Positions 665 to 21,282 of a stretch of 22,424 nt of DNA are shown piece after piece. The stretch's first letter is position 1. Each line of letters begins with the position of its first letter. Source of the DNA: Verrucomicrobiota bacterium (GTDB lineage: Bacteria; Verrucomicrobiota; Verrucomicrobiia; Verrucomicrobiales; DEV007); contig JAJRVS010000007.1 of the NCBI GenBank assembly GCA_024277195.1, positions 1 to 22,424 of the forward strand, written 5' to 3'. The position numbers and the translations under genes are program-made. Under the pieces are notes generated by a model. The model was not told the origin of the DNA. It saw only the letters and a list, made by a program, of their open reading frames with translations, and did not search any database.

Positions 665-1591
665 ATGCTCCGCTACATCACCAGTCGATTGCTACAGGGA
701 CTACTCGTCCTCTTCGCACTCTACACCATCACTTTCTTCCTAGTGAAGGCGATGCCGGGTGACGCCTTCACCGGCGAAAAAAACATCCCCGAAGATATCA
801 AACATCAGATGCGCGAGCAATCTGGTCTCAATGACCCACTCTTCATTCAATATCTAAATTACCCCAAAAACATCCTCTTGCACGGCGACTTCAATTATTC
901 AATCAAAAAACGCCGTCCAGTGGCCGACCTCATCGCCCAGTCTTTTCCCGCCTCGCTGATCCTCGGCCTGGTTGCCCTTGTTTTTGCCATCGCGATTTCC
1001 ATCCCCATCGGCGTGATCTCTGCCGTGCGCAAAAACACCTGGGTCGATTATTCCGGCATGGCCATCGCCATGATCGGCATCTGCATACCCGCTTTTGTCG
1101 TCGGCCCTTTATTACAAATAGGCATTGCCACCCGCATCCCCTCCCTCAAAATCGCTGGATGGGATTCACCCGTCGATGTCCTGCTGCCGGCCATCACCCT
1201 CGGCCTCGCCACCGCCGCCTATCTCGCCCGTCTCACCCGTGGAGGCATGTTGGAGATCCTCTCACAAGACTACATCCGCACCGCCCATGCCAAAGGCGTG
1301 CCGCTGCCGCGACTGATCATCGTGCACACCCTGCGCGGCGGCCTCATCCCCTCGGTCGCCTTCATCGGACCCGCTTTTGCCGCACTGATCTCCGGATCCT
1401 TCATCGTAGAATCAATTTTCCAAATCCCCGGCATGGGCCAACACTTTGTCACCGCCATCTTTGATCGCGACGAATTCCTCATCATCGGACTGGCACTCTT
1501 TTACGGATTTCTCGTCGTTGTCATGAACCTCGCATCCGACCTGATGGTCGGCCTGCTCAACCCAAGAGTGCGCATCGCCGAGCAGTCATGA
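665..1591 (+). CDS. oligopeptide/dipeptide ABC transporter permease (OppB/DppB family)
   Basis: 308 aa. The N-terminus 'MLRYITSRLLQGLLVLFALYTITFFLVKAMPGDAF' and the multi-TM profile are typical of OppB/DppB. The stop overlaps the next start as ATGA, indicating translational coupling. Confidence 0.9.
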   Translation: MLRYITSRLLQGLLVLFALYTITFFLVKAMPGDAFTGEKNIPEDIKHQMREQSGLNDPLFIQYLNYPKNILLHGDFNYSIKKRRPVADLIAQSFPASLILGLVALVFAIAISIPIGVISAVRKNTWVDYSGMAIAMIGICIPAFVVGPLLQIGIATRIPSLKIAGWDSPVDVLLPAITLGLATAAYLARLTRGGMLEILSQDYIRTAHAKGVPLPRLIIVHTLRGGLIPSVAFIGPAFAALISGSFIVESIFQIPGMGQHFVTAIFDRDEFLIIGLALFYGFLVVVMNLASDLMVGLLNPRVRIAEQS

Positions 1592-2544
1592 GCAACGAGC
1601 AAAACACCGCGAACGACGAAGTGGTCAAAGGCACCTCCTTGGGACGCGACGCCTGGCTGCGCTTACGCAAAAACTCCATCGCCATGATCAGCTCGTTTTT
1701 TCTGATCCTGATCATCTTCCTGTGCTTCGTTTTTGCCTGGTTCTGCGAAAACCCCAATACCATAAATTTAACTAACAAATTCGCCTCGCCTTCCGCTCAA
1801 CATTGGTTCGGCACCGACCAACTTGGCCGCGACCTTTTTTCACGCATCCTCTATGGCGGACAAATCTCTCTCTTAGTTGGTTTTGTCGCCACCGCCGTCT
1901 CGCTCATCATCGGCATCAGCTACGGCGCGGCGTCCGGATATGCCGGCCCCAAAACCGACGCCGTGATGATGCGCATCGTCGACATTCTCTACGCCATCCC
2001 CTTTCTCGTCCTAGTCATCATCCTAAAAGTCGTGATCGCCAACCCCATCGACATTGCCGCTGGGTGGACCGTCGTGAACTTTGGCTGGAACAAAGAACTC
2101 GTGATGCGCAGCGCCAACATCCTACCGCTCTTCATCGCCATCGGCGCACTAGGCTGGCTCACCCTCGCCCGCATCACCCGCGCCCAAGTCATCTCAATCA
2201 AAAACCAGGAATACATCGAAGCCGCCGTTTCCCTCGGCCTGAGCCGCCGCCGCATCCTCTTCCGCCACATCATCCCCAATACCATCGGTCCGGCCATCGT
2301 TTACGCCTCACTCACCATCCCCGGTTTCATCCTCTACGAAGCCGCCCTCTCCTACCTCGGTATGGGCGTCGAAGCCCCCAACTCCTCCTGGGGAATCCTG
2401 ATCAAAGAAGGTGCCAATTTCCTCGAAACCCAACCCTCATTGTTAGTCATTCCCGGCTTGGTCTTTTCACTCACCCTCTTCGCCCTCAACTTCCTCGGCG
2501 ACGGCCTGCGCGACGCCTTCGACGTCAGAACCTCCAAAGATTGA
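1588..2544 (+). CDS. oligopeptide/dipeptide ABC transporter permease (OppC/DppC family)
   Basis: 318 aa. The N-terminal TM helix is followed by 'FGTDQLGRDLFSRILYGGQISL', the OppC signature. The ORF overlaps the upstream permease by 4 nt. Confidence 0.9.
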   Translation: MSNEQNTANDEVVKGTSLGRDAWLRLRKNSIAMISSFFLILIIFLCFVFAWFCENPNTINLTNKFASPSAQHWFGTDQLGRDLFSRILYGGQISLLVGFVATAVSLIIGISYGAASGYAGPKTDAVMMRIVDILYAIPFLVLVIILKVVIANPIDIAAGWTVVNFGWNKELVMRSANILPLFIAIGALGWLTLARITRAQVISIKNQEYIEAAVSLGLSRRRILFRHIIPNTIGPAIVYASLTIPGFILYEAALSYLGMGVEAPNSSWGILIKEGANFLETQPSLLVIPGLVFSLTLFALNFLGDGLRDAFDVRTSKD

Positions 2545-3595: not shown

Positions 3596-5923
3596 TTACT
3601 TATTCCTCATCTCCCGCGCCTTCTTCAAAAAGTCATCAACCGAAGTGGTTTTACTTTTAGGAGGAGCGACCGTAGGCCGTGGTCGGGAACTAGCTGTTTT
3701 GGTCGATTTCGGCTTACTTTTCGGTTTAGGCGTCGGAATCCTCGCCAACTTCACGCTACTGCTCGCGGTTTTATCCCCCACGACTTTCACCTTCGCCTCA
3801 GCCTCCCTATAATTCGCCAGCTTTAATTTCAAAGTATGATCCCCCACCGGTGCCTGTAGTTTCAACGGAGTTTTACCCAGGGAAAGCCCCCCCGGTCCGG
3901 TCACCTCCGCCCCCGACGGACTGCTCACAATTTCCATCGTCCCCTGCTCAAAGATCCCGCCCACATCCACTTTTCCATCCCGAACGACTTTATGGCTTTC
4001 CTTGGACAACAACCAGCCGTTCAAAGTCATCGTCACCTCATACTCTCCCGTCGGCAACTCGGCCACTCTCGCCGGTGTCACCCCCTTGCGTGTTGCAAAG
4101 GCCCCGTCGTATGACTCCACCTCCGATGACAGTCGAGCCAGCTCGTAAGCCACACCCTCCGGAGAAGAACCAATCATCAGTGTGCCACGACTGCGCTTCA
4201 ATGTGAGATCGACCTCGGAAAGTTCACCGTTCAACATCGAAACTTCCCGGGTCACCGGCTCAAAACCCGGAGCCTGCACCTCCAGCTGGTAGTTCCCTAA
4301 AGCCAGCCCTTCCATTCTCTGCGGACTGGTGCCACTACTCATTTCCACTCCTTCCTTCCCGGATCCCGCCCCGCCGATCAGCTTCATTGCGGCTCCCTCC
4401 GGTACCGTTTTGACATCTATCCGCCCCCGCAAGGCGTCAATCCGACCCAACTCCCTGAGAGCTTTCACGTCGACCGGCTCCAGCTTCAAAATATTCTCGT
4501 AGATGATCTTCTTCTTCAACTCGTCTGTCCCAGCCTCCATCACACTCTCATGCAGTGCCGTCACCTGTGCACTGAGCTGTGCTTTCTGCTTCGCTGACAT
4601 TTCAGATTTCAGCTTCGCCGCAGCCGTCGCTTTATTCCGGTCTTCCTCTTGTTGGGTCACCAGTAAAGCGGCCGCCTTTGCCTTGCCTGCTGCTTCAAGA
4701 TCAGCCGCTTGCTGGGCCTCGAACTTCACCAATGCGGCCTGCTCACGCTTCGGCGCTTCCACTCCGTACCACCAACCGGCAGCGCCACCGCCCACAAGGG
4801 TGATCACCGCAACCAGGGTCATTACTTTTTTTCCTGACCCACTTTTCTTTTTCCGTCGTTTCGCAGATTGTCCCGGCACCTCCCCACCCGACAGTTCCAG
4901 CCACAAGGCCTCCGCACTCTCCGGGCGCATCTCCGGGTCCTTCGCCAAACAGGACGCCACCACCATTTCCCACTCCTTAGGAATTTTCACAACTTCCACT
5001 CCCTCCGTTCTTAACTCTTTGCGCCGCACAGTGATACTCGGCACCTCGACCGTCTCGATCTGGTGCTGGATATTTCCCCGGTAAAACGGCGGTTTGCCCG
5101 TCAGCAATTCGTAAATGGTCGCACCCAATGCATAGATATCATCGGACACACTAGGCGGATAGCCTGAAGCCTGTTGCGGGCTCATATAGGGCAGCGTCCC
5201 GCTCACCTGCACACTACCCGATGTCAATCGGCTCATCGAATCGGTCAAACTGCCAGCAATGCCAAAGTCCAGCATCCGCAAGGTTCCGTCCATATCCGAC
5301 ATCAAATTGGCAGGTTTCAGATCACGATGCACCACCTTGCAGCTGTGCGCATATCCAAGAGCCTCACAGGACTGCTCAATCCAGTCGGTAATTTCCGCCA
5401 CCTCGAAAGTCTTGTTCGGTTTGCCCACACGCAGCTTGCTCAAAGTCTCGCCCTCGACGTATTCCATCACAATGGCCGCAGAGTGATCATCCTCTACCAG
5501 GTCATGGATACGCACGATATTCGAGTGAGTTAAATCCAGGCAGCGTTTGGTTTCTTCACGCAAGTCATCCAGGGCAGCATCATCCCCCTGCACCGCTTCA
5601 GGTAGAAATTTCAATGCTACTTCCCGGTTCAGTCGCTCGTCCCTTCCCAGCCACACCACTCCCATACCGCCACGACCAATTTGACGAATCAGCGAATATC
5701 GACCAAATGTTTTCAACCCCTCCCGCAATCCCTTCAACGTCACCCCGAAATCAAGATCATCTTCACTGACTTCTGCCTGAGCTTTCAACGAAACCGTTGT
5801 GAGATGTTTTGACGGCAAATCCACCTGCGGTTCCTCCGAAGGTTGCGGATGCCCGGAAACATCGCCGCGCAAAGTCGACCCGACACCGAGATCGTCTTCA
5901 CTATGGTTTGACTCGTCGCTCAT
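3596..5923 (-). CDS. Ser/Thr protein kinase with TM helix, coiled-coil region and C-terminal tandem PEGA domains plus a Lys/Pro-rich tail
   Basis: 775 aa. Kinase motifs are 'GRGGMGVVW', 'VALKFLPE', 'HRDLKPANLM', 'DFGIAG' and 'YMSPQQA'. A hydrophobic segment 'VMTLVAVITLVGGGAAGWWYG' follows. The C-terminus has PEGA-like repeats ('GSSPEGVAYEL', 'VSSPSGAEVTG') and a 'PKPKSKPKS' tail. Confidence 0.85.
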   Translation of the reverse strand: MSDESNHSEDDLGVGSTLRGDVSGHPQPSEEPQVDLPSKHLTTVSLKAQAEVSEDDLDFGVTLKGLREGLKTFGRYSLIRQIGRGGMGVVWLGRDERLNREVALKFLPEAVQGDDAALDDLREETKRCLDLTHSNIVRIHDLVEDDHSAAIVMEYVEGETLSKLRVGKPNKTFEVAEITDWIEQSCEALGYAHSCKVVHRDLKPANLMSDMDGTLRMLDFGIAGSLTDSMSRLTSGSVQVSGTLPYMSPQQASGYPPSVSDDIYALGATIYELLTGKPPFYRGNIQHQIETVEVPSITVRRKELRTEGVEVVKIPKEWEMVVASCLAKDPEMRPESAEALWLELSGGEVPGQSAKRRKKKSGSGKKVMTLVAVITLVGGGAAGWWYGVEAPKREQAALVKFEAQQAADLEAAGKAKAAALLVTQQEEDRNKATAAAKLKSEMSAKQKAQLSAQVTALHESVMEAGTDELKKKIIYENILKLEPVDVKALRELGRIDALRGRIDVKTVPEGAAMKLIGGAGSGKEGVEMSSGTSPQRMEGLALGNYQLEVQAPGFEPVTREVSMLNGELSEVDLTLKRSRGTLMIGSSPEGVAYELARLSSEVESYDGAFATRKGVTPARVAELPTGEYEVTMTLNGWLLSKESHKVVRDGKVDVGGIFEQGTMEIVSSPSGAEVTGPGGLSLGKTPLKLQAPVGDHTLKLKLANYREAEAKVKVVGDKTASSSVKLARIPTPKPKSKPKSTKTASSRPRPTVAPPKSKTTSVDDFLKKAREMRNK

Positions 5924-6025: not shown

Positions 6026-7822
6026 TCATTCAACAAGCTTGCCCTCTAACGCTTGAATCAGAAAACCATCCCCAGTCTTCACCACCACCATTGAAGCCTC
6101 CAGCTCCAGAGAACTTTTTAGCCCGATAAGATTCCGATAAATTTTATTTAACGTCTCATCCGTATCCTGAAAATATTTTACCGCGCCCGATCCGCTACTC
6201 TCGCCATCATACCCATGGTTATTATAACACTCCAAATTAGCATTCAAGATTATCTGATTGAGATTGAGCCCCCCAGACATTTCATTCGTGGGTAGATTCC
6301 CCAAAACCCGCCGGATCTCCCACTCAATATGCGGTTTGATATATTGCCTTTGAACCCCTGCCCCGGATCCTCCCGACATCAACGTCCCAGCCCCACCCAA
6401 ATAAAGATCCTCAAGCATGCCACTGAGGATATTCGCCTTACCAGGGTAGTTTTCCTCATTCAAGCGCTGTTGATACCGGGTGTAGAAATCAACTTCATAC
6501 TCAATAACAACTCTATAATGAGGCTTCTCATTACCCCATTCAAATTTCCCAGTTCCATCCGGACTATTCCTCGGGGGGAAAAGAAAGCCCTTGTCATCAG
6601 CAATACCCGAAGCCAGCCAAACCTTTGCCAGATGGCGATAATAATCTGCAACCTTCGACGGTCTCTCTGCGGCCTCAACAATAATTCGAAAGCCAAGAAA
6701 GTCCCGGCGATCCGAGGGAATCAGGTAGCGACGACGCGATGAGCGAACGGTTAGGGTGTCATCATTGAGCCAAGCTCCTCCGCGAAACACACGGTATTGC
6801 CTCCCACCACCATCATCGTATCCACCTTTGCTGAGAACCGCCCGCACATCGTCGTCGTTCATTTCATCTCGATACCAGTCGTCACACCACTCCCACACGT
6901 TGCCGCCCAAATCATAGAAGCCGGAGGGATTCATCTTATAACCTCCCACTCGAGCTGTGCGCACTGCTCCATCGTCGTAATTCCATCCCTTCCCTGGAGT
7001 TCCTTCCCAACATTCGGAGCCAGCATAGTTTCCCGATCCTCTTGGTGCTGGCCACTCATTTCTCCAGGGATACACCCCACTCGATGCCACCGCGGCACCC
7101 CACTCGCTGTCCCTGGGTAAGTGATAACCAAAACCGGGGTTCTGCTGCGTCAGCCAATTGCAAAAGGCCTGCGCTTCGTTCCAGCTCACACACACCACCG
7201 GATGATCCTCGCTCTGCTTGAATCCAGGATTTTCCCACGAAGCTCCCTTTTCCAATTTCCATTTCTTCAAATTGGAACCACCACTCTTCACATACTTCAC
7301 CACCTCTGCCCCACCTTGCTGCACATAGCCGCTCGCCTCGGCATAAGCCCGAAAATCCCGCACCCGTGTCTCATGACGGCACATCAATACACCAGCTTTT
7401 CCCGGCACTGGTATGAACTCCATACCCAGCGAATTAATAAAAGGGCCCTCCTTCGTCGCCGCCTCCAAACGCTCGACTGCCAGCTCTTGCTGCGATTTTG
7501 GTAACACCGGTGTTAGTTTCGGCGGCGTTACCTTCGATGACATGGATTTTGGCGGCGTTGGTTTCATCACCACCCGCACCGCTGCATTGCTCCCCGGTTT
7601 CAACATCACTCTATGCACCATCCTCTCATACCCCGCCAGACTCAGCTCCCACTTCATCTCCCCGGGCTGCAATTCTTTCAACCCGTTCAGCGGTGTCACT
7701 CCCAGCACTTTTCCGCTTCCGATTTCCCTCACCTCCGCCCCCACCGGATCGCTCAACACCTCCACCTCAACCGGCTCAAAGACAAAGACCATTTCCTTCT
7801 CAACTCCGGCCGACAATGTCAC
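6026..7822 (-). CDS. PEGA + non-catalytic FGE-sulfatase (SUMF1/C-type-lectin fold) domain protein with a ~230-aa C-terminal extension; GTG start; probably a decayed kinase-fusion paralog
   Basis: 598 aa. The PEGA segment is 'VFVFEPVEVEVLSDPVGAEVREIGSGKVLGVTPL'. The FGE domain runs 'MEFIPVPGKAGVLMCRHETRVRDF...HPVVCVSWNEAQAFCNWL...GGNVWEWC...RGGAWLND...GFRI'. The ORF begins with GTG immediately after an in-frame TAG (see pseudogene 7823-8067). Confidence 0.7.
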   Translation of the reverse strand: MTLSAGVEKEMVFVFEPVEVEVLSDPVGAEVREIGSGKVLGVTPLNGLKELQPGEMKWELSLAGYERMVHRVMLKPGSNAAVRVVMKPTPPKSMSSKVTPPKLTPVLPKSQQELAVERLEAATKEGPFINSLGMEFIPVPGKAGVLMCRHETRVRDFRAYAEASGYVQQGGAEVVKYVKSGGSNLKKWKLEKGASWENPGFKQSEDHPVVCVSWNEAQAFCNWLTQQNPGFGYHLPRDSEWGAAVASSGVYPWRNEWPAPRGSGNYAGSECWEGTPGKGWNYDDGAVRTARVGGYKMNPSGFYDLGGNVWEWCDDWYRDEMNDDDVRAVLSKGGYDDGGGRQYRVFRGGAWLNDDTLTVRSSRRRYLIPSDRRDFLGFRIIVEAAERPSKVADYYRHLAKVWLASGIADDKGFLFPPRNSPDGTGKFEWGNEKPHYRVVIEYEVDFYTRYQQRLNEENYPGKANILSGMLEDLYLGGAGTLMSGGSGAGVQRQYIKPHIEWEIRRVLGNLPTNEMSGGLNLNQIILNANLECYNNHGYDGESSGSGAVKYFQDTDETLNKIYRNLIGLKSSLELEASMVVVKTGDGFLIQALEGKLVE

Positions 7823-8067
7823 TTTCCGCTACTGCAGCGGCCAGCCCTTATACCGTACCGCCAATTGATATATTCCTTCCGTCAACTCCTTCGTCAACCG
7901 TCCACTACTCCCCGTCGTACCCGCTGCCTCGCCTCCAATCAATATCTCCGCTCCTGCAGGTTCACTACTTATCTTCAAAAACGCAGGTTTGACGAGAGGC
8001 TTCACAGGAGTTGGCTCACTTTCAACTGAATTGTGGGTCCAAAATCAAGATCATCTTCGTTACCCAT
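7823..8067 (-). pseudogene. Remnant 5' end of a kinase-PEGA-FGE paralog: a 12-codon kinase N-terminal stub, a frame change, a PEGA segment and an in-frame TAG
   Basis: The reverse complement of 8032-8067 encodes 'MGNEDDLDFGPT', which is the conserved N-terminus of the three kinases here. The frame then shifts into 'KISSEPAGAEILIGGEAAGTTGSSGRL...VRYKGWPLQ' (PEGA), which ends in TAG at 7829-7831 exactly where the intact paralog has Gln ('SWPSQQREVEL'). Confidence 0.6.
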
Positions 8068-8083: not shown

Positions 8084-9904
8084 TTAACGCTCCAATTCCA
8101 CCTGATAGATCGCATTTCCTAGCTCTACGGTCATGCCGGATGCCAGTGGAGCCAGTTCGCCAGCTCGCAGCCCCTGACCATTCACACGCACTCTGCCAGT
8201 ACTGCTGCCAGTTCTACGATCGCCATCAGCTCCATCGGCACTGTTCTCAACCCAAAAGCAGCCACGGTAATGATGAAAAATCCCCTGTGAAGAAGCCAAA
8301 CCGGAGTCGGGCAAATAAATCGGATTATCTTCACCACTGCCGAATGCCGCCTCAGTCAGCAACCAGATGCACAGACGAAATGCAGGGCTCGATTCCACCG
8401 GACGAAAAACCACACAGCCCGTGACCGGTTTCAACTCCGGCTGGGGCCCCTGCCAAAGCTGATGATTCTCCGCCTCTGGTGCCTGACTACCAGCAGCACC
8501 ATGGTGCTGCAAATCGATGAGATAATCTTCCCCCGGCACCGCATTCAGGGAAAGCCTGCCCTGATTCTCAAATCGAGCACCAGGCTCTCTTTCATTCAGT
8601 TCATCAGAGTTGAGCTTAGCCCCATTGGTATCCGGCCGAGTGCGGAAATAGAGCCCATCTTTACCCGCACTTGCTACCACATGCACCTTGCTGATACTAC
8701 GAGTGCATTGGTCTCGCTCCTCTGAACGTGGTAAAAACCAGGTCACCAGATCACAACAATCACGCTGACGACCAATAGCTACCTCCTCACGCGCTGTCAG
8801 ACGAAGTGGCAAGCCCTCATCGCCTCCTCCCTGGGGAAGCAGAGTCAGACAAGCTGCTGGCTCCACTGTTGTTAGAAAAGCAGAGCAGATGCGGCGGGCA
8901 CCCGTCGGCTCATCGGAAATCTGACTCAACTCCACTGTAAAATAATTATCTGGCAGCTTAGCTTCAAGCAGATCGTTGATCGTTTTTATTTTACTTAAAG
9001 CAGCTAAACCACTAAAATCCATATCCGCTTTGTGCTCAGCTCCGAGCCCCGCATTGCCCCCATCCCCCGCTACCACTTGATTACCGAAATTTTCTAAATT
9101 AATATTCGGCTTGGATTCATCAGGTTTGGTCAAAATAGTAAGCCTGACTTCTCCCTCGAAGACCCGGTGCCTACCCAACTGGGTAAAACTGACCTGAAAG
9201 TTAAACAGGCGCGTCCCCCTGGAGTTTTCAGAAAACTCAAATTCACACAGTTTTTTCACTGGCCGACCGTGCTCGAACTGAGCAAAGTTTTTCTTAATCG
9301 GATAAGTAAGCACCCGAGCACAATTGATCTCAAATTTCACATCAAGCAAAGGCTCCTGAGTGAGTGCCTTCATGCTCACCTCGAGCACCGTCGCCGTGTC
9401 CTCCACCAGCACCCGGTTCACATTCAAATTCAACTCGACAAACTGCCGCAGGCCGATGGTGATTGGCTCCACCTCCTCTTGTAGCTCCTCCTTCGCTGCA
9501 TCCATCAGCCCTAATGCCTGGCGCTCTATCGGCACCGCATCAAGCCGGGAAAGCGTCGCCGAACCACTAGAGCTCGCAGCTTGGACTTGGGCTCCCATAG
9601 ATATCAGTTTTTCCACAGGCGCGGACAAGGATTCCCCACCACTCACCTTAGTCCCCTCTTGCGGCGTCGGTATAGTCGGTGCATCCCGCTGCTTCTGCAC
9701 TACAGGCGCAGGCGTAGGCGCATCCATTGGCAACGTTTGTGCATCCATATCGCAGACCGTTTGCGCATCATCTGTATCGATCCTCCCCCCAGCTGCCTCG
9801 GGCGCTGTCGTTTCCATGCCAGGCTTAGGCAGCGGCAGCTGGCACTTACTACAAAAATTCACCCGAGGATGGTAATTCTGCAGGCATTTTGGGCAAATAA
9901 TCAT
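8084..9904 (-). CDS. N-terminal zinc-ribbon protein with two FHA-like domains (phosphothreonine-binding)
   Basis: The likely start is 'MIICPKCLQNYHPRVNFCSKCQ', a CxxC...CxxC ribbon. An internal FHA-like segment is 'VAIGRQRDCCDLV...ISKVHVVASAGKDGLYFRTRPDTNGAKLN'. The C-terminal FHA is 'GSSTGRVRVNGQGLRAGELAPLASGMTVELGNAIYQVE'. Confidence 0.65.
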   Translation of the reverse strand: MIICPKCLQNYHPRVNFCSKCQLPLPKPGMETTAPEAAGGRIDTDDAQTVCDMDAQTLPMDAPTPAPVVQKQRDAPTIPTPQEGTKVSGGESLSAPVEKLISMGAQVQAASSSGSATLSRLDAVPIERQALGLMDAAKEELQEEVEPITIGLRQFVELNLNVNRVLVEDTATVLEVSMKALTQEPLLDVKFEINCARVLTYPIKKNFAQFEHGRPVKKLCEFEFSENSRGTRLFNFQVSFTQLGRHRVFEGEVRLTILTKPDESKPNINLENFGNQVVAGDGGNAGLGAEHKADMDFSGLAALSKIKTINDLLEAKLPDNYFTVELSQISDEPTGARRICSAFLTTVEPAACLTLLPQGGGDEGLPLRLTAREEVAIGRQRDCCDLVTWFLPRSEERDQCTRSISKVHVVASAGKDGLYFRTRPDTNGAKLNSDELNEREPGARFENQGRLSLNAVPGEDYLIDLQHHGAAGSQAPEAENHQLWQGPQPELKPVTGCVVFRPVESSPAFRLCIWLLTEAAFGSGEDNPIYLPDSGLASSQGIFHHYRGCFWVENSADGADGDRRTGSSTGRVRVNGQGLRAGELAPLASGMTVELGNAIYQVELER

Positions 9905-9979
9905 GATTAAAAAAGGTATACTCTGAAAACATTTTAACATCGCTATTGTGATCTATCAATGCTCCGATTCTTCGCAAGG

Positions 9980-11491
9980 TCACTCCTCCTTGAATTTCGC
10001 TTTGAGCGCATCCGCCACGGCTGGACCAAAATCCTCTGGCGACTGCTCGGCGACGAAGGCCATCGACTGCTCAGGCGTCATGCCCTCCCGCATTTTCATT
10101 TCCGTAAGCTTCATCAAGCGCTCAGCCTGCTCACCACTGAGTGTCGCCAACAGCGCCTGCATATCAGCGCCTCCACGTATTTCCAGCAATTGCTTTTCCA
10201 CATCAATCTTAAGCTGCTCATCAAGAGCCGCGGCTTCGTTTTTGGCCTGTTTCACCAGCTTCAACGCTTCAACGCCCTGCTTCGCCACCTCCAGATCGGA
10301 AGCCGCCTGATCTTGCTCCTGCTCGCGCTGATGAGCACCACGTTCCCCCCCCTCCTCCAACTCTGCGCCCAGGCTCTTTTTACGCTCTTCCCGATTAGCT
10401 TCAGCGCGGATCCTTTTTTCCTCAAGCTCATAACCCACTTCCTCGATGCGGATAGCCCAATCCAACTGCATACCCGTGCGTCGCAGCTCTTTCTCCGCAC
10501 TCTGGAGAAACGCCTTTTTCTGCTGCGCACGATCACTGCTCTTCAATCCTAGTTCGTGAGTCAGCTTCTCGAAGTGCTCGTTCAAATCATGCTCGTCGCG
10601 GAACAAATCCACCTTCTCCTTCCGTAGCGCATCGCTCAAACGACTGTCGAGTTCACGCTCCAAAGTTTTTTCCCGAAACTCTGCCATCTTCCCTCGCAGC
10701 GTATCCACCACCTCACCGCTCATATCAGCAAGCCGAACCCCGTCACACTTCAGTCCCGCTCCAGTAAAAGCTTTGCTCAGCTTTGCCATCACCGCTTGTT
10801 CGATCAGCTCCCGGATATCACCCGTGTCGAGCAATTCCTGCATCGTCTTTCCACCGATCCGCTCCTGCACCGCAATACGCACCTCACCGTGAAATTCATC
10901 AGACAAATCCTGTTGGGTGAAAGTCGACTGCCCAGTCAAAAAACGATCAGTGAACAATTTCGGATCGGTCACTTGAAAGAGAGTGCGCGCCCGCACGTCC
11001 ACTGGCACCCCATCCTTTGTATTTATCTTATCGAGATAGAAATCAATCTCCGCGCTGCGTATATCCAACAAGATAGCATGGCTAGCTCCTCCTCCTTCTA
11101 CTTTCAGGAAGCGCTTGATGAAATTGTCGAACTGAGTGTACCCCGGGTCCAGAGCTCCTTGGTATTCACCGTTCTGGAAGATCAACGCCAAGGTGCCCTC
11201 GTCCACCTGCAAACCGTGATGAAAAGTCTTGTCAGGAATCACCAGATCCACTCGAACCGCAAAATCACCCGGAGATCGCTGCCAGCGATCATAATAAATT
11301 CGCCGCCGAGCTTCGAGATCCTGTTTATCGCCGCACTTCCAGCAAAACTCAGAATCAGATCCCACGGAAGCCCCGCAACGGTTACAAGAAGCCCAAGAGT
11401 TTGCACTCGGACATCCACAATCATTACAAAAATCGGCGTTCTTGGAGACAGCCTTGGCGCAGTTCGGACAGCGTTCGTTAAAAAATCCCAT
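9980..11491 (-). CDS. N-terminal double zinc-ribbon + SPFH/band-7 domain protein with an acidic coiled-coil C-terminus
   Basis: 503 aa. The N-terminus is 'CPNCAKAVSKNADFCNDCG...CNRCGASVGSDSEFCWKCG'. An SPFH-like core follows ('LALIFQNGEYQGALDPGYTQ...ILLDIRSAEIDFYL...VRARTLFQVTDPKLF'), then a long Glu/Lys-rich coiled coil. Confidence 0.7.
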   Translation of the reverse strand: MGFFNERCPNCAKAVSKNADFCNDCGCPSANSWASCNRCGASVGSDSEFCWKCGDKQDLEARRRIYYDRWQRSPGDFAVRVDLVIPDKTFHHGLQVDEGTLALIFQNGEYQGALDPGYTQFDNFIKRFLKVEGGGASHAILLDIRSAEIDFYLDKINTKDGVPVDVRARTLFQVTDPKLFTDRFLTGQSTFTQQDLSDEFHGEVRIAVQERIGGKTMQELLDTGDIRELIEQAVMAKLSKAFTGAGLKCDGVRLADMSGEVVDTLRGKMAEFREKTLERELDSRLSDALRKEKVDLFRDEHDLNEHFEKLTHELGLKSSDRAQQKKAFLQSAEKELRRTGMQLDWAIRIEEVGYELEEKRIRAEANREERKKSLGAELEEGGERGAHQREQEQDQAASDLEVAKQGVEALKLVKQAKNEAAALDEQLKIDVEKQLLEIRGGADMQALLATLSGEQAERLMKLTEMKMREGMTPEQSMAFVAEQSPEDFGPAVADALKAKFKEE

Positions 11492-11712: not shown

Positions 11713-14529
11713 TCATTTTTTCAGACCTCCACAATGCAGCATCTTCCTTCCCAAATATGGATTAAACGGCTTCTCACTGCTGGTCTGCAACCAATCCCCG
11801 CCCCCACCCTTCACCAGCGGGCAATGCAGCACGTAATAACCTTCACGTCCCTGCGCAATCCCAATCACCTGTTTGCTCAGCATTTCAAATTCCTTGCGAA
11901 ACTCTTTGAGCGTTTTTGCAGTGGTTAGAGAGTCGAATTCACTACTCAATAAACGACGACCCTTACCTTCAAGTAATAATGCCGCGTGGCGTTTTGCACT
12001 TGCCAAGTCATCCTTGCTCAAAGCCGTCGCCATATTTATATAAGCTCGCAACATTTGATCGACCTCTGGGACCCCGTCCCTATTGACATATCCAGAGTCA
12101 TTAACGACGACACGGAAACCAAAATTGTCATCCCTCCGCGTTGCAATATTGCTCATCCTTGTCGATAAAAAATAATTATACTCTTCAGCATGCGCCCAGG
12201 ATCCACCACGCATTACGTACCCCTCAGGTTCCATGTGAACACATCCCTGTTTTTTGCAATATTCAAGCGCATAACTACCTTGCATCTCCTTACGAAACCA
12301 GTCTTCACACCACTCCGACACGTTGCCGCCCAGATCATAAAAACCGAAACGATTCACTCTATAACTACCCACCGAAGCTGTCCGTGGATGCCTATCGGCG
12401 TATCCTCCTTCAATTACAGACCAATTGGCTGAAGTAATATTAACCTCTTTACCTTTAAAGTTGCCCTCATCTCCCCTGCTCGGCGGCCATTCATTCCCCC
12501 ATGGATATTTATCAATAGACCCCACCGCAGCACTCCACTCCCCATCACTCGGCAGACGATAGGTATAACCGGGATTCTGCTGCGTCAGCCACTTGCAAAA
12601 TGCTTGTGCTTCATTCCAGCTCACGCACACCACTGGGTGATCCTCGCCCTGCTCAAATCCCGGCCTCTCCCACGAGGCATCCTTGTCCAGCTCCCAAGGC
12701 GTTAAATATTCTCCTTTTTCATTCTTCTTCACTTTCAACACATACGCCCCGCCGCTCTGCACATAATCCGTCGCCTCCACATACGCCCGGAAATCCCGCA
12801 CCCTTGTCTCCGTCCGGCACATCAACACGCCCGGCTTCCCCGGCACCGGCACAAACTCCATCCCCAGTGAATTCATATAAGGGTTCTCCTTCGTCGCCAC
12901 GCCCAGACGCTCACTCGCCAGTTGCTTAGCGGTCTTCGGCAGTCGCTTCATCACCACTCTCACAGCCGCATTGTTTCCCGCTTTCAGCATCGCTCTGTAC
13001 TCGATCTTCTCATATCCCGCCAGACTCAGTTCCCACTTCATCTCGCCAGGCTGCATTCCTTGTAATCCCGTCAACGGTGTCACTCCCAGCACCTTGCCGT
13101 CCCCGACTTCCCTCACCTCCGCTCCCAGCGGTTCGCTCAATAGCTCCACTTCAACCGGCTCAAAAGTAAAAGTCACCCGCGCATTCTCCTCCCCTCCCTT
13201 CAGTTCCACCTCACGTTGTTGTGACGGCCAACTCTCATACTCCGCCACCACCAAATGATTGCCTGGCAACGCTTTATACCTCAACAAACCATCCCCGCCA
13301 GTCGTCCCGACCTCCACTCCGTCCACTCGAATTTTCGCTCCTCCGGGTTCAGTGCCGATTTCCAGCAGCACCGGCGTATTCATCAAGGCCACCTGCCTCG
13401 CCTCTGCTTTTGCCAACTCATCCGCTGCTCGCTTAGCCTCCAGATCCGCCAACGCCACCGCCGCTCGTTTCGGTGCCTCCACTCCATACCACCACCCAGC
13501 CGCCACTCCTGCCGCCAGAACCATCACTGCAGCCATCGTCACCCACTTCTTTCCAGCAGCACTCTTTTCCACTGCCGGTTTCTGGCATTTTTTCACCAAC
13601 GCTTTTTTCTTTCGCCCCTGCACCGCGCCTCCAGACAACTCCGCCCACAACGCCGCCGCACTCTCCGGGCGCTCTTGCGGGTCTTTCGCTAGGCAGGACG
13701 CCACCGCATCTTCCCACAGCAGCGGAATCTTTCCTGCATCTTCAATATCCAACTGCTTGCGCCGCTCCTCCATGCTCGGCGCTTCCAGAGTCTCGATCTG
13801 ATGCTGCACATTGCCCCGGTAAAACGGTGGCCTACCCGTCAACAATTCATAAATTGTCGCTCCCAGCGCATAGACATCATCCGTCGCCGTCGGCGGGTAT
13901 CCCATCGCCTGCTGAGGACTCATATACACCAGCGTGCCACTGGTCGGCGCCCCGGCTGCGGTCAGACGGCTCATCGAATCGGTCAAACTGCCGGCGATTC
14001 CAAAGTCCAACACCCTTAGTTTTCCCTCACCGTCGATCATCAAGTTGGCAGGCTTCAGATCCCGGTGCACCACCTTACGCCCATGCGCGTATTCCAATCC
14101 CTCGCAAGCCTGCCCAATCCACTCGTTGATTTCCCCTACCTCGAACACTTCCTTGTCTTGTTTCAGACGCCTCGCTGTCAACGTATCCCCAGCGACATAC
14201 TCCATCGAAATCGCCGCTGAAGTCCCATCCTCCACCCAGTCGTAAATCCGCACAATGCTCGGATGCGTCAGATTCAGACATTGCATCGTCTCTTTTTTCA
14301 AATCGTTGATCGCTACCGGATCCCCCTGCACCACCTCCGGCAAGAACTTCAGTGCCACCTTGCGCCCCTCAAGCTTTTCATCCTGCCCCAACCACACCAC
14401 TCCCATGCCCCCACGACCCAGCTGGCGGATCAGCGAATAGCGCCCGAACCCCTTCCGCCCAGGCTGCAAACCTTTCAGCGTCGGACCAAAATCAAGGTCA
14501 TCTTCGTTCTGACTGGGATCAGTATTCAT
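11713..14529 (-). CDS. Ser/Thr kinase - TM - PEGA - non-catalytic FGE-sulfatase domain - C-terminal Cys/His-motif (DUF3347-like) domain fusion protein
   Basis: 938 aa. A full kinase motif set is present ('GRGGMGVVW', 'HRDLKPANLM', 'DFGIAG'). The TM helix is 'WVTMAAVMVLAAGVAAGWWYG'. PEGA is 'GTEPGGAKIRVDG' and 'SEPLGAEVREVGDGKV'. The FGE domain runs 'MEFVPVPGKPGVLMCRTETRVRDF...HPVVCVSWNEAQAFCKWL...RGGSW...FGFRVVV'. The C-terminus is 'YVLHCPLVKGGGGDWLQ...NPYLGRKMLHCGG'. Confidence 0.9.
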   Translation of the reverse strand: MNTDPSQNEDDLDFGPTLKGLQPGRKGFGRYSLIRQLGRGGMGVVWLGQDEKLEGRKVALKFLPEVVQGDPVAINDLKKETMQCLNLTHPSIVRIYDWVEDGTSAAISMEYVAGDTLTARRLKQDKEVFEVGEINEWIGQACEGLEYAHGRKVVHRDLKPANLMIDGEGKLRVLDFGIAGSLTDSMSRLTAAGAPTSGTLVYMSPQQAMGYPPTATDDVYALGATIYELLTGRPPFYRGNVQHQIETLEAPSMEERRKQLDIEDAGKIPLLWEDAVASCLAKDPQERPESAAALWAELSGGAVQGRKKKALVKKCQKPAVEKSAAGKKWVTMAAVMVLAAGVAAGWWYGVEAPKRAAVALADLEAKRAADELAKAEARQVALMNTPVLLEIGTEPGGAKIRVDGVEVGTTGGDGLLRYKALPGNHLVVAEYESWPSQQREVELKGGEENARVTFTFEPVEVELLSEPLGAEVREVGDGKVLGVTPLTGLQGMQPGEMKWELSLAGYEKIEYRAMLKAGNNAAVRVVMKRLPKTAKQLASERLGVATKENPYMNSLGMEFVPVPGKPGVLMCRTETRVRDFRAYVEATDYVQSGGAYVLKVKKNEKGEYLTPWELDKDASWERPGFEQGEDHPVVCVSWNEAQAFCKWLTQQNPGYTYRLPSDGEWSAAVGSIDKYPWGNEWPPSRGDEGNFKGKEVNITSANWSVIEGGYADRHPRTASVGSYRVNRFGFYDLGGNVSEWCEDWFRKEMQGSYALEYCKKQGCVHMEPEGYVMRGGSWAHAEEYNYFLSTRMSNIATRRDDNFGFRVVVNDSGYVNRDGVPEVDQMLRAYINMATALSKDDLASAKRHAALLLEGKGRRLLSSEFDSLTTAKTLKEFRKEFEMLSKQVIGIAQGREGYYVLHCPLVKGGGGDWLQTSSEKPFNPYLGRKMLHCGGLKK

Positions 14530-14684: not shown

Positions 14685-15044
14685 ATGAAATCTTCAGTAA
14701 CAGATATCATGCCGCAGCAACTGCGCCGCTCACTCAGCAAATTTGGCAGCGACCTGTCCATAGCGCGACGCAAACGACGCTTAAGCATCGCGATGATATG
14801 CGAACGGCTTGGCGTCTCCAAGTCCACCTGGCAACGAATGGAAAAAGGCGACCCTACGGTCTCCATGGGTGCCTATATTCAAGCGCTCTTTGTCCTAGGC
14901 TTTGGCACTCCGCTAACTGAATTGATTGACCAACGCAACGATGAGCAAGGTCTATTGCTGGAAATCGAGCATCTGCCAAAACGCATCACCCAGCCACGAC
15001 AAAAAAATCATCATGAAACGAAACATTCAGGTATTTTTAGCTGA
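14685..15044 (+). CDS. hipB: XRE-family HTH transcriptional regulator, HipB-like
   Basis: 119 aa. The segment 'RRKRRLSIAMICERLGVSKSTWQRMEKGD' is an HTH_XRE motif. The gene sits directly upstream of, and overlaps by 32 nt, a HipA-N-domain ORF. Confidence 0.7.
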   Translation: MKSSVTDIMPQQLRRSLSKFGSDLSIARRKRRLSIAMICERLGVSKSTWQRMEKGDPTVSMGAYIQALFVLGFGTPLTELIDQRNDEQGLLLEIEHLPKRITQPRQKNHHETKHSGIFS

Positions 15045-15327
15045 AGAAGACACCCCACTGGGAGAACTGCGCTACGACCATCAAGGGCAGCGGGAGAACG
15101 CAGCTTTTGCCTATTCCCATACCTGGCTCGAAAACGGCGAACGGTTTTCTGTCGACCCCGCCTTGCCATTGGTGAGTGGATTCCAATTCCACGCGCGACG
15201 AAGCCAAGGCACTCTATTTCATGGAGCTATCGCCGACACCGAGCCCGATGGTTGGGGACGAAAAGTAATTCTCCGAAACCACGCGAAACTCAGAAAAACA
15301 GCAAAAGCCCAAGGCGAAAAAAAATAA
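15013..15327 (+). CDS. hipS: HipS-like protein, equivalent to the HipA N-terminal subdomain
   Basis: 105 aa. 'MKRNIQVFLAEEDTPLGELRYDHQG...FSVDPALPL...DTEPDGWGR' matches the HipA N-terminal domain. It ends in TAA inside an A8 run, and the next gene starts at the very next codon in the same frame. Confidence 0.6.
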   Translation: MKRNIQVFLAEEDTPLGELRYDHQGQRENAAFAYSHTWLENGERFSVDPALPLVSGFQFHARRSQGTLFHGAIADTEPDGWGRKVILRNHAKLRKTAKAQGEKK

Positions 15328-16272
15328 GTGGACGTCTTGGGGGAACTCGACTTCCTATTGGCAGTGGATGATGAAAGCCGTATGGGAGCTTTACGTTTTT
15401 GCGACGAAGATGGAGTCTTCCAAGCCACACACGGTGAAGGCGAACGGCGCACTCCCCCGCTGATAGAGCTCCACCAGCTTTTTTGCTCTTCCCGCGCTAT
15501 TGAAACCAATACCGAGACTGCTCAGGATCTCGCTTATTTGCAAGGGCGAGGAACCTCCCTCGGGGGTCTGCGTCCAAAATGTTCGATCCGAGATGAAGAC
15601 GGTTCTCTTGCCATTGGAAAATTCCCAAGTGTGGCAGATGAACGCGCTGTGACCAAAGCAGAAGTTCTCACCCTTACCTTAGCAAAACAGGCAGGCATTC
15701 AAGCCGCCGACGCACGCATCGTGATGAGTGAGCAAATACCGATAGCAGTGATCAAGCGCTTTGATCGAACGCCGACCGGGTTCCGCATCCCCTACCTGTC
15801 CGCCGCCACACTTTTGGGAGCAGAACGCGATGACCCCAACGATCATTCCTACACTGAAATAGTTGATGCCCTACGCATCCACGGATACGACGTTCAAGCC
15901 GATATCGAAGAACTCTATCGCCGCATCGCTTTCTCCATACTGATCAACAATGTCGATGACCATCTACACAATCACGGTTTTTTGCATGTAAGGCATGGCC
16001 AATGGCGGCTAGCACCCGCCTTTGATCTAAACCCCTTTCCCCATCGCGCCCGCGAATTAAAAACCTGGATTTCAGAGGATACAGGACCCGAAAGTTCCCT
16101 TACAGCCTTACAGTCAGTAGCCCCCTATTTCCGTATCAAAAAATCCTTGAGCGATACGATCATAGCTCAAGTAACTTCAGCCGTGCAAAACTGGCGGCAA
16201 GTAGGAGCAAAACTGAAGATGAGCAAAACAGAACTCGATGCCTTCAGCGAAGCTTTCGAGGGAAACGCATAA
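15328..16272 (+). CDS. hipT: HipT-like Ser/Thr kinase toxin, equivalent to the HipA core kinase domain; GTG start
   Basis: 314 aa. It carries 'LGGLRPKCSI' (G-x-Q/R-x-K loop), 'NNVDDHLHNHGF' (the catalytic DDHLKN motif) and 'RLAPAFDLNP' (the HipA C-terminal signature). Confidence 0.7.
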   Translation: MDVLGELDFLLAVDDESRMGALRFCDEDGVFQATHGEGERRTPPLIELHQLFCSSRAIETNTETAQDLAYLQGRGTSLGGLRPKCSIRDEDGSLAIGKFPSVADERAVTKAEVLTLTLAKQAGIQAADARIVMSEQIPIAVIKRFDRTPTGFRIPYLSAATLLGAERDDPNDHSYTEIVDALRIHGYDVQADIEELYRRIAFSILINNVDDHLHNHGFLHVRHGQWRLAPAFDLNPFPHRARELKTWISEDTGPESSLTALQSVAPYFRIKKSLSDTIIAQVTSAVQNWRQVGAKLKMSKTELDAFSEAFEGNA

Positions 16273-16289
16273 GATCTACAATGCCCCCT

Positions 16290-16336
16290 CTTCCCTTCAT
16301 CATTCATCAGTTCCTTGTTCGATATTCAATATTCCC
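16290..16336 (+). repeat. ~48-bp repeat copy between the hipT 3' end and the amidase 3' end
   Basis: 'cttcccttcatcattcatcagttccttgttcgatattcaatattccc'. Confidence 0.8.
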
Positions 16337-19292: not shown

Positions 19293-19383
19293 ATAGAATA
19301 GGAGAAATCGTTGTTAATCTATCGAAAAACGGTAGCCAAGTAAACTGTCATTTTTTTACTACCAAACAGCCTTCAATCCAACT

Positions 19384-19668
19384 TTAAAAATTCCTTGCTC
19401 GATATTGGATATTCCCACCCCTTGCTCGATATTCGATATTCCCCACCTCCCCCACATGCCACAGCAGGCGAAAGGCATTGCCGGATGAAACCTTAAACTT
19501 CTTTCCCCATTGATCGACCACCACAGGATTGTCGGGCAGCAAACCCCACAAAAATGCGTGCACCGCTTTATGTCCATGTTCCTTACTAGCCATCGACATC
19601 GAGAGTGGAAACGACGCCTGGGATTCCCGCCACTCGCTAGTGTAGCGGAGCGTATCACCGCTATGTCA
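19384..19668 (-). pseudogene. Truncated hipA-like fragment (N-terminal domain only), cut off by the 48-bp repeat
   Basis: Translation gives 'DTLRYTSEWRESQASFPLSMSMASKEHGHKAVHAFLWGLLPDNPVVVDQWGKKFKVSSGNAFRLLWHVGE'. This resembles the HipA region 'F.Y...W......LSLSLPL........F..LLPEG...........DPFALL..IG'. An upstream stop is present, and the 3' end runs into repeat copies at 19391-19444. Confidence 0.4.
19391..19444 (+). repeat. Two adjacent copies of the heptamer-repeat core ('TTGCTCGATATTSGATATTCCC') of the ~48-bp repeat family
   Basis: Direct reading: 'ttccttgctcgatattggatattccc' and 'cttgctcgatattcgatattcccc'. Confidence 0.8.
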
Positions 19669-19778
19669 CTGATTAGCCATAGCCGCACTGAAGATGGACA
19701 TGTTGAACGAAGATTTCGCCGAATTCGCAAGACTTCTTGAAAAAGCCGAAGTGCGAATTATTACACCCCAAGGGGGTA

Positions 19779-19940: not shown

Positions 19941-20056
19941 CCTTCGGGCCTGTTAGCCTGACGCGTATGCGAGATCGACTCCCGTACTCCACGAACCACC
20001 CCCAACCCACGCAATGCCATTGCGTCCCACATCCCGCCATTCACACGTCACCTCCT

Positions 20057-20146: not shown

Positions 20147-20237
20147 TTCGGGTAATTTCCTCCAGCTGTTTGACTCCGTCTATCTCCACTCCGTTACGGT
20201 TCGTCAGCGAACTGACTCGGCTCCCATTCCTATCTTT

Positions 20238-21231: not shown

Positions 21232-21282
21232 CTTTACTACTCCCCCTCCAATTTTTCTTCATTCTTATATTTCTTCACTTCA

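What the first reader, a model, noticed from the sequence alone, without database searches (positions are those of the whole stretch)
7823..8067. Kinase-domain deletion scar: a 12-codon kinase N-terminal stub fused out of frame to PEGA-FGE, plus an in-frame TAG
The reverse complement of 8032-8067 encodes 'MGNEDDLDFGPT'. The nucleotide stretch 'aaaatcaagatcatcttcg' is nearly identical to the 5' ends of the three intact kinase genes (5747-5770, 14495-14516, 19256-19275). The reading frame then changes. A PEGA segment follows and terminates at a TAG that replaces the Gln codon of the intact paralog. The downstream 598-aa PEGA-FGE ORF restarts with GTG. Either about 1.1 kb encoding the kinase and TM region was deleted, leaving a pseudogene, or a stand-alone secreted/sensor FGE protein was produced. 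Either way this is a snapshot of paralog turnover in the family.
Basis: seen in the sequence. Interest (0 to 1): 0.6.

Follow-up and report, generated by a model that had tools for sequence, protein, structure and literature searches.

The report
Decayed receptor-kinase gene: deletion plus stop
This is the broken remnant of a membrane receptor kinase gene in an uncultured Verrucomicrobiota genome: a roughly 1.07 kb deletion removed its kinase and membrane anchor, and a stop codon then hit the remaining sensor part, which is ordinary gene decay that also occurred independently at the same spot in related genomes.

Summary
On the minus strand, ATG 8067 opens 12 codons (MGNEDDLDFGPT) that match the conserved N-terminal motif of the window's intact Ser/Thr kinases. 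The PEGA reading frame that follows is offset by 2 nt. An in-frame TAG (7831..7829) aligns with Gln438 of the intact paralog 11713..14529. A 598-codon ORF (GTG 7822 to 6026) carries the rest of PEGA1, PEGA2, an FGE-sulfatase domain and an orphan 215-aa tail.

About 356 codons are missing: the kinase domain, the juxtamembrane region and the single TM helix. In relatives that keep the upstream gene pair (SPFH/zinc-ribbon p503, then p618), six distinct loci have an intact kinase-TM-(PEGA)-FGE gene in this slot as far as their contigs reach. One relative has a TAG inside FGE, one has a shredded roughly 280-nt kinase relic, and two have nothing. The ancestral gene was therefore an intact receptor kinase, and it decays recurrently.

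The surviving PEGA-FGE part shows no detectable decay, so the lesions are recent or the remnant is still used. The remnant has no TM helix or signal peptide, so a secreted product is not supported.

Best reading: a recent pseudogene (about 0.75). Rivals: a functional kinase-less product (about 0.12), an assembly artefact (about 0.08), and recoding (about 0.02). This is ordinary and of low interest.

The parts
8032..8067 (-). 12-codon relic of the kinase gene start (MGNEDDLDFGPT). It lies 16 nt downstream of the p618 stop, in the syntenic position of the intact kinase start in relatives.
   Evidence: 26/29 nt to paralog; chance expectation 0.01. Synteny.
8002..8067 (-). The stub ORF as it now reads: 21 codons (MGNEDDLDFGPTIQLKVSQLL) plus TGA 8004..8002. 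The TGA overlaps a GTG (8005..8003) of the PEGA frame (GTGA).
   Evidence: direct reading of the sequence.
8014..8031 (-). Interval containing the deletion junction. It lies between the last conserved stub codon (ACA 8034..8032) and the Pro-rich linker (ESEPTPVKP) that precedes PEGA1 in the other frame. About 356 codons (kinase, juxtamembrane region, TM) are missing relative to the paralog, and the deleted length is not a multiple of 3.
   Evidence: No TM in the remnant, against one TM in each intact kinase. The exact breakpoint is inferred, not mapped.
7832..8044 (-). 71 open codons in the PEGA frame (offset 2 nt from the stub frame): linker plus the N-terminal two thirds of PEGA domain 1.
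   Evidence: Pfam PEGA profile positions 4-45 of 71, E = 2e-4. Alignment to paralog residues 374-437. Coding-like codon usage in this frame only.
7829..7831 (-). In-frame TAG inside PEGA domain 1, aligned with Gln438 (CAA) of the paralog 11713..14529.
6026..7822 (-). 598-codon ORF from GTG 7822 (annotated publicly as 588 aa from ATG 7792). It holds the tail of PEGA1, PEGA2 (about 7556..7765), FGE-sulfatase (about 6680..7375) and an orphan 215-aa C-terminus (6029..6673).
   Evidence: It keeps 72 of 76 family-invariant columns. The other two frames carry 34 and 39 stops. The orphan tail has no homolog but codon usage typical of coding sequence.
8084..9940 (-). p618, an uncharacterised zinc-ribbon protein. 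It is the upstream neighbour and the syntenic anchor used to find orthologous loci.
9980..11491 (-). p503, a double zinc ribbon plus SPFH/Band 7 protein. It is the second syntenic anchor.
11713..14529 (-). Intact 938-aa paralog (kinase-TM-PEGA-PEGA-FGE-DUF3347-like tail) used as the reference for what is missing.

Best explanation
The locus is a recently inactivated copy (pseudogene) of a transmembrane Hanks-type Ser/Thr receptor kinase with the architecture: N-terminal EDDLDFGPT motif, kinase, one TM helix, PEGA x2, non-catalytic FGE-sulfatase (C-type-lectin-like) ectodomain, C-terminal tail.

Two lesions disable it. First, an out-of-frame deletion of about 1.07 kb joins codon 12 to the linker before PEGA1. 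It removes the kinase domain, the juxtamembrane region and the TM helix, and translation from the native ATG now ends after 21 codons. Second, a nonsense TAG sits in PEGA1, most simply explained as CAG to TAG.

What is shown: the lesions, the missing domains, the ancestral state from synteny, and independent decay of the same gene in relatives. What is inferred: that the lesions are real in the organism, that the remnant is not functional, and the order of the two events.
For: - The stub matches the conserved kinase N-terminus far beyond chance. It sits 16 nt after the p618 stop, where relatives start an intact kinase gene.
- The syntenic gene in relatives is kinase-TM-...-PEGA (L024) or kinase-TM-FGE (L026, L021). 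The remnant's PEGA-FGE part therefore belongs to the same ancestral gene type.
- Each intact kinase in the window has one TM helix. The remnant has none.
- The TAG cuts PEGA domain 1 in the middle (Pfam 4-45 of 71 lies before it). Any restart product therefore begins inside a beta-sandwich domain.
- Two independent disabling lesions occur in one gene, while its five large neighbours (775, 618, 503, 938 and 664 aa) are full-length. This argues for relaxed selection on this gene and against generally poor sequence.
- The same slot is independently degraded in L019/L020 (two samples), carries a nonsense TAG in L021, and is empty in L017/L018 and L023.
- No promoter-like site lies between 7830 and 8100 (weak evidence).
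Against: - The 598-codon ORF downstream of the TAG is fully open (34-39 stops in the other frames).
- It keeps 72 of 76 family-invariant residues, the same as the intact paralog, and has normal codon usage. There is therefore no positive sign of neutral decay. This fits a very recent pseudogene, but it fits a still-used product equally well.
- dN/dS of 0.2-0.25 against the paralogs reflects old history only, because dS is saturated.
- Only one contig of one MAG carries this allele, and read support could not be checked.
Confidence: 0.75

Rival explanations
1. The truncated gene is functional. A kinase-less, TM-less cytoplasmic protein (partial PEGA1 + PEGA2 + FGE + orphan tail, 588-598 aa) is translated from GTG 7822 or ATG 7792. 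It would act as a stand-alone binding or decoy module within the p503-p618 kinase island.
For: - The ORF is long and intact, with all family-invariant FGE/PEGA residues retained and coding-like codon usage, including in the orphan tail.
- The public annotation calls it a gene.
- FGE-sulfatase domains occur with many N-terminal partners, and some hits show no recognised N-terminal Pfam domain (PMC5758913).
Against: - The product would start in the middle of PEGA1 and has no TM helix or signal peptide. In every intact relative this part lies after the TM helix, so it would be outside the cell.
- No homolog with this truncated architecture was found above 55% identity.
- No promoter-like site lies upstream.
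- The TAG upstream of the restart is itself a second lesion. It would have destroyed the longer product that could have restarted at the GTGA overlap at 8005. That is what relaxed selection predicts.
Confidence: 0.12
2. The deletion and/or the TAG are assembly or consensus errors in a metagenome-assembled contig, or a minority population variant. The real genome would have an intact kinase-TM-PEGA-FGE gene.
For: - The window is a single 22,424-nt MAG contig containing several paralogs that could confuse an assembler.
- A second gene in the contig, HipA, also has an in-frame stop, TAA 15325..15327.
Against: - The junction joins non-homologous positions (codon 12 to the pre-PEGA linker). Jumping between paralogs at a shared k-mer would not produce that.
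- The stub shares no exact stretch longer than about 11 nt with the most similar paralog 5' end (26/29 nt with 3 interspersed mismatches).
- Two independent lesions fall in one gene, while the five large neighbouring genes are full-length.
- Comparable decay of the same syntenic gene is seen in independent assemblies, identically in two samples for L019/L020.
Confidence: 0.08
3. The interruptions are programmed: ribosomal frameshifting from the stub frame into the PEGA frame, and TAG read-through or recoding as Gln. A single fused protein would result.
For: - The TAG aligns with a Gln of the paralog.
- Another syntenic gene (L021) also has an in-frame TAG at a position that is Gln in the window's paralog.
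Against: - Even if read through, the product would lack the kinase and TM, so nothing is rescued.
- TAG, TAA and TGA all serve as ordinary stops in this contig. For p618, homolog alignments reach residue 617 of 618, so its stop sits at the conserved C-terminus.
- CAG to TAG is a single common transition.
- No slippery motif was looked for, so nothing positively supports programmed frameshifting.
Confidence: 0.02

Closest known systems
Transmembrane Hanks-type Ser/Thr kinases of Verrucomicrobiota with PEGA and FGE-sulfatase (SUMF1/EgtB/PvdO-family) ectodomains. Examples: the in-window paralog 11713..14529 (P0003) and hits P0028, P0050, P0066, P0087.
   Same: - N-terminal EDDLDFGPT motif (the stub).
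- PEGA-PEGA-FGE order, with 53% aa identity to the paralog over 458 residues.
- All family-invariant residues kept.
- Same genomic island, with p503/p618 and further kinases.
   Different: - The kinase domain and TM helix are absent.
- The reading frame is broken between the stub and PEGA.
- A TAG interrupts PEGA1.
- The C-terminal 215 aa are unrelated to the paralog's DUF3347-like tail and have no detectable homolog.
FGE-sulfatase-type C-type-lectin target proteins of diversity-generating retroelements (TvpA class; kinase-FGE fusions are listed as category b12 in PMC5758913), and 'FGS' sensor domains of bacterial conflict systems (PMC7159879).
   Same: - FGE-sulfatase domain at the C-terminal side of a signalling domain.
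- No cysteine in the C-terminal part of the FGE domain where the catalytic pair of true FGEs lies. The sequence is; the location of the catalytic pair is from general knowledge of FGE and was not tested by alignment.
- The paralogs differ most in the last roughly 40 residues of the domain, where DGR variable regions lie (31-45% aa identity there against 65-69% in the rest).
- A bAvd-like gene lies next to another FGE gene of the window.
   Different: - No template repeat for any of the three FGE C-termini was found in the window.
- No reverse-transcriptase domain was detected among the ORFs scanned there.
- A DGR link is therefore not shown.
Ordinary bacterial pseudogenes formed by deletion plus nonsense mutation in members of multigene families.
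   Same: - Truncation relative to homologs.
- Frame disruption.
- Premature stop.
- Intact paralogs nearby.
- Independent losses in related lineages.
   Different: Nothing essential. The only notable point is that decay is caught early, because the downstream 1.8 kb is still pristine.

Membership tests
Hanks-type Ser/Thr receptor kinase (kinase-TM-PEGA-FGE), as a functional member | Protein kinase catalytic domain (Pfam PF00069) | tested here: not met
   No Pkinase hit in the stub, the PEGA segment or the 598-aa ORF. All three intact paralogs hit at E = 1e-46 to 1e-50. tblastn/BLAST finds only the 29-nt N-terminal relic.
Hanks-type Ser/Thr receptor kinase (kinase-TM-PEGA-FGE), as a functional member | Single transmembrane helix between kinase and ectodomain | tested here: not met
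   Kyte-Doolittle 19-residue maximum is 1.06 in the remnant, against 1.63-2.18 for one segment in each intact kinase.
Hanks-type Ser/Thr receptor kinase (kinase-TM-PEGA-FGE), as a functional member | PEGA and FGE-sulfatase ectodomain homologous to family members | tested here: met
   Pfam PEGA and FGE-sulfatase hits. 53% identity to the paralog. 72 of 76 invariant columns kept.
Pseudogene of that family | Clear homology to a functional gene, plus disabling lesions (truncation, frame disruption, premature stop) | tested here: met
   Out-of-frame deletion of about 356 codons and an in-frame TAG.
Pseudogene of that family | The ancestral state at this locus was an intact gene | tested here: met
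   An intact kinase gene lies directly after the p618 homolog in L002, L012, L013, L024, L025 and L026.
Pseudogene of that family | Relaxed selection or accumulating damage in the remnant | tested here: inconclusive
   No excess of changes at invariant positions (4 of 76, the same as the intact paralog), and the ORF is still open. There is no close ortholog that would allow a branch-specific test.
Pseudogene of that family | No functional product (no expression) | not testable with these tools
   Needs transcript or proteome data from the source community.
DGR target gene (FGE-sulfatase/CLec variable protein) | A template repeat matching the variable region, with mismatches at template adenines | tested here: not met
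   An adenine-tolerant scan of both strands found at best 35 or more non-A mismatches per 117-120 nt for all three FGE C-termini. The rest of the genome is not available.
DGR target gene (FGE-sulfatase/CLec variable protein) | Reverse transcriptase and Avd nearby | tested here: inconclusive
   A bAvd-like gene (PF22296) at 20251..20640 and a 23S_rRNA_IVP four-helix-bundle gene at 20863..21231, but no RT domain among the ORFs scanned. The contig ends inside the neighbouring FGE gene.
Catalytic formylglycine-generating enzyme (SUMF1-type) | Conserved catalytic cysteine pair in the C-terminal part of the domain | tested here: not met
   The C-terminal segment YRVFRGGAWLNDDTLTVRSSRRRYLIPSDRRDFLGFRIIV contains no cysteine. 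NCBIfam scores are far below every equivalog cut-off. The position of the catalytic pair is taken from general knowledge of FGE.

The most novel reading that the evidence does not exclude
Loss of the kinase moiety at this syntenic slot might be selected rather than neutral. The gene after p503-p618 was hit independently in the window, in L019/L020 and in L021, and is absent in L017/L018 and L023. The surviving pristine PEGA-FGE-orphan-tail ORF, and perhaps the 21-aa stub peptide carrying the conserved EDDLDFGPT motif, would then be retained as a kinase-less decoy or regulator of a fast-evolving sensor-kinase (conflict-system-like) island.
Probability: 0.08. Interest if true: 0.45.

Novelty: new member of a known kind. 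Interest (0 to 1): 0.2.

Why it matters
It matters little beyond annotation. The 588-aa protein deposited for this contig is most likely the tail of a dead receptor kinase and should be flagged as a pseudogene, not as an 'FGE family enzyme'.

The comparative result is modestly useful. It shows fast birth-and-death of FGE-sulfatase sensor kinases in a conserved Verrucomicrobiota island (SPFH/zinc-ribbon protein, p618, several kinases, and in relatives FHA-trypsin and caspase genes). The same gene slot is caught at four stages: intact, nonsense, stub and gone. That could serve as a small natural series for studying turnover of such sensors.

Tried and rejected
- **DGR hypothesis.** It was prompted by a bAvd-like gene beside an FGE gene. 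No template repeat was found in the window and no reverse-transcriptase domain among the ORFs scanned, so it was not adopted.
- **Orphan C-terminal 215 aa.** The word-index search and a full HMMER scan of 1.84 billion representatives both gave zero hits. Pfam gave none. The single-sequence AlphaFold2 model had pLDDT 36 and is uninformative, so no fold search was run.
- **Source of the contig.** Exact look-ups of P0001 and P0003 found no record, and the cluster listing gave no names or accessions. The organism is only inferred as Verrucomicrobiota, from the closest p618 homologs.
- **Close ortholog of the remnant.** None was found above 55% identity. The 55% hit, P0002, is an ortholog of the intact paralog, not of the remnant.
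- **RNA and signal scans.** Rfam on the whole window gave no hits. The promoter/terminator scan around the locus found nothing above shuffled expectation.
- **p618.** No hits in PDB or NCBIfam. An FHA-like appearance of its C-terminus is only my reading of the sequence and is not claimed.
- **Stop-codon recoding.** Rejected, because all three stops terminate other genes in the contig, p618 at a conserved C-terminus.
- **Microhomology at the deletion junction.** It cannot be assessed without the ancestral sequence. BLAST of the junction against the paralogs found nothing.

Full report
**What is in the sequence.**
The window is a complete 22,424-nt contig of an NCBI metagenome-assembled genome (P0001 and P0003 come from a contig of exactly this length). 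Its closest relatives are Verrucomicrobiota.

On the minus strand, ATG 8067 lies 16 nt after the stop of the upstream 618-aa gene. It opens MGNEDDLDFGPT (8067..8032), then IQLKVSQLL and TGA 8004..8002.

The ten residues NEDDLDFGPT are identical to residues 8-17 of the intact 938-aa kinase at 11713..14529, with 26/29 nt identity. The third kinase, at 17298..19292, is more diverged.

A frame offset by 2 nt is open from 8044 to 7832. It encodes a Pro-rich linker and the first two thirds of a PEGA domain (Pfam profile positions 4-45 of 71). It ends at TAG 7831..7829, which aligns with Gln438 (CAA) of the paralog.

GTG 7822 then opens a 598-codon ORF ending at 6026. This ORF holds the rest of PEGA1, PEGA2, an FGE-sulfatase domain (E = 2.8e-36) and a 215-aa tail. 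The public annotation uses ATG 7792, giving 588 aa.

**What is missing.**
Alignment with the paralog and other kinase-PEGA-FGE proteins shows that residues about 18-373 are absent. That stretch covers the kinase domain, the juxtamembrane region, the single TM helix and a short coiled segment, about 1.07 kb in all.

Each intact kinase in the window has one hydrophobic segment (KD19 of 1.63-2.18). The remnant has none (maximum 1.06).

The junction lies between 8031 and about 8014. The deleted length is not a multiple of three, so the 'frameshift' and the 'deletion' are one lesion. The TAG is the second lesion.

The stub's TGA overlaps a GTG of the PEGA frame (GTGA at 8005..8002). Without the TAG, a coupled restart could in principle have produced a longer truncated protein, so the TAG is a further hit on the remnant.

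**Ancestral state from synteny.**
The two upstream genes form a conserved pair: p503 (double zinc ribbon plus SPFH/Band 7) and p618 (zinc ribbon, otherwise unassigned).

State of the slot directly after p618, in loci recovered from genomes, metagenomes and Logan assemblies:

| State of the slot | Loci | Detail |
|---|---|---|
| Intact as far as the contig reaches | L002 (Brevifollis) | kinase N-terminal motif, present twice |
| Intact as far as the contig reaches | L012 | motif plus the start of the kinase domain |
| Intact as far as the contig reaches | L013 | kinase plus TM |
| Intact as far as the contig reaches | L024 (closest relative, p618 57% identical, GCA_020439985.1) | motif, kinase, TM, start of PEGA |
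| Intact as far as the contig reaches | L025 | motif plus the start of the kinase domain |
| Intact as far as the contig reaches | L026/L027 | kinase, TM, FGE (L026); L027 reaches only the kinase start |
| Damaged | L021 | kinase-TM-FGE with an in-frame TAG inside FGE (VSWEDA*AF) |
| Damaged | L019/L020 (two samples, same sequence) | roughly 280-nt kinase relic, MTDNDLDFGPILHG*REGLKVFDRYQLVRR..., with several stops and frameshifts |
| Empty | L017/L018, L023 | no kinase remnant detected |

The intact cases are documented, and the damaged and empty cases.

The window's stub therefore marks the start of what was an intact receptor-kinase gene. This particular gene has decayed independently in several lineages.

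**State of the remnant.**
- The PEGA-FGE part keeps 72 of 76 columns that are invariant in seven intact homologs. That is the same score as the intact paralog.
- Divergence from the two in-window FGE paralogs is old and was constrained: dS is above 1 and dN/dS is 0.15-0.25.
- The ORF has 0 stops, while its other two frames have 34 and 39.
- All three segments, including the orphan tail, have the codon usage of real genes in their frame only.
- The lesions are therefore recent relative to the age of the gene, or the remnant is still under selection. With no close ortholog (best non-self hit 55%, and that one is an ortholog of the paralog), these cannot be separated.

**Why I favour a pseudogene (0.75).**
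- The native start now yields 21 residues.
- Any restart product would begin inside PEGA1. It would lack the TM helix that places this part outside the cell in all intact relatives, and it has no signal-like N-terminus.
- Two independent lesions hit this gene while its large neighbours are intact.
- The same slot decays repeatedly elsewhere.
- The 'secreted stand-alone FGE' alternative is not supported. A cytoplasmic kinase-less product cannot be excluded (0.12).
- An assembly artefact (0.08) is unlikely. The junction joins non-homologous positions, and the stub shares no long exact repeat with the most similar paralog 5' end. Read support was not checkable.
- Recoding or frameshifting (0.02) would not restore the missing domains. 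All three stop codons also terminate other genes in the contig, p618 at a conserved C-terminus.

**Comparison with known systems.**
The family is that of Verrucomicrobiota receptor Ser/Thr kinases with PEGA and FGE-sulfatase ectodomains, named 'SUMF1/EgtB/PvdO family' by NCBI.

The FGE domain here has no cysteine in its C-terminal segment and scores far below every enzyme equivalog cut-off. By analogy with TvpA-type C-type-lectin FGE domains, which are the largest class of DGR targets and include kinase fusions (PMC5758913), and with the 'FGS' sensor domains of conflict systems (PMC7159879), it is probably a binding module.

A bAvd-like gene and a related four-helix-bundle gene lie beside a fourth FGE gene at the contig end. 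No template repeat and no reverse-transcriptase domain were found in the window, so a DGR connection remains only a lead.

**Verdict.**
It is an ordinary case of gene decay in a multigene family. Two things make it slightly more informative: the pristine state of the remnant, and the independent decays of the same syntenic gene in relatives.

Noticed in passing
window 14926..16272 (+): A HipA toxin gene is split by an in-frame TAA at 15325..15327. The Couple_hipA part (14926..15324) and the HipA_C part (15328..16272) are in the same frame, and an HTH antitoxin-like gene lies at 14685..15044. It is a second nonsense-interrupted gene in the contig.
   Followed up: partly
window 21465..22424 (-): A fourth family member runs off the contig end. 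It has the first third of a PEGA domain joined directly to the pre-FGE linker and an FGE-sulfatase domain, and it stops 5 residues after the domain. Relative to the 938-aa paralog it lacks about 100 residues (the rest of PEGA1 and all of PEGA2) in frame. Its FGE domain is 62% identical to the remnant's.
   Followed up: partly
window 20251..20640 (-) and 20863..21231 (-): Two four-helix-bundle genes (PF22296 bAvd-like; PF05635 23S rRNA-intervening-sequence protein) sit next to the FGE gene. This is a DGR-like neighbourhood, but no template repeat or reverse-transcriptase domain was found in the window.
   Followed up: yes
window 16288..16345, 19368..19452, 20044..20293, 20768..20815, 21260..21469: A repeat of about 58 nt (…CTTCATCATTC…GTTCCTTGTTCGATATTCGATATTCCC…) occurs in six or more full or partial copies, some in tandem. 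The copies flank the four-helix-bundle genes and a HipA-N-like ORF fragment (19359..19730). It is REP- or MITE-like.
   Followed up: partly
window 19765..19965 (-): A 201-nt element folds into a long, nearly perfect nested hairpin (MFE -105.9 kcal/mol, z = -7.3 against shuffles). It has no Rfam match and its nature is unknown.
   Followed up: partly
window 6029..6673 (-): The 215-aa C-terminal tail of the remnant ORF has no detectable homolog in 1.84 billion representative proteins or in Pfam, yet it is an open frame with gene-like codon usage. It is an orphan domain attached to a dying gene.
   Followed up: yes
window 3596..5923 (-); L002 3501..3651: The conserved N-terminal kinase motif occurs twice in the 775-aa kinase (SEDDLGVGSTLRG at aa 8-20 and SEDDLDFGVTLKG at aa 63-75). 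It also occurs twice in the Brevifollis syntenic kinase. Its role is unknown.
   Followed up: no
whole window: There is strong strand asymmetry at third codon positions. Minus-strand genes have G3 of about 0.45 and C3 of about 0.15, while the plus-strand permease genes (665..2544) have C3 of 0.54-0.63. The plus strand is therefore C-rich regardless of gene orientation.
   Followed up: no
L021 6511..8508; L019 5290..5600 and L020 4050..4360: The syntenic kinase gene downstream of the p618 homolog is damaged in other lineages too. L021 has an in-frame TAG at 8068 inside the FGE domain. L019 and L020, from two different samples, share the same roughly 280-nt kinase relic with multiple stops and frameshifts.
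   Followed up: yes
L001 1..100: This Logan contig carries the ortholog of the intact 938-aa paralog. It has an in-frame TAA 16 nt from the contig start, inside the tail of the kinase C-lobe. This is either a contig-end artefact or another truncated copy.
   Followed up: no
L017, L019, L020, L023: The p503-p618 pair belongs to a larger conserved island in relatives. The island holds FHA-trypsin fusion genes, a caspase (Peptidase_C14) gene, small unassigned genes and several kinases, which is reminiscent of described bacterial conflict or signalling islands.
   Followed up: no
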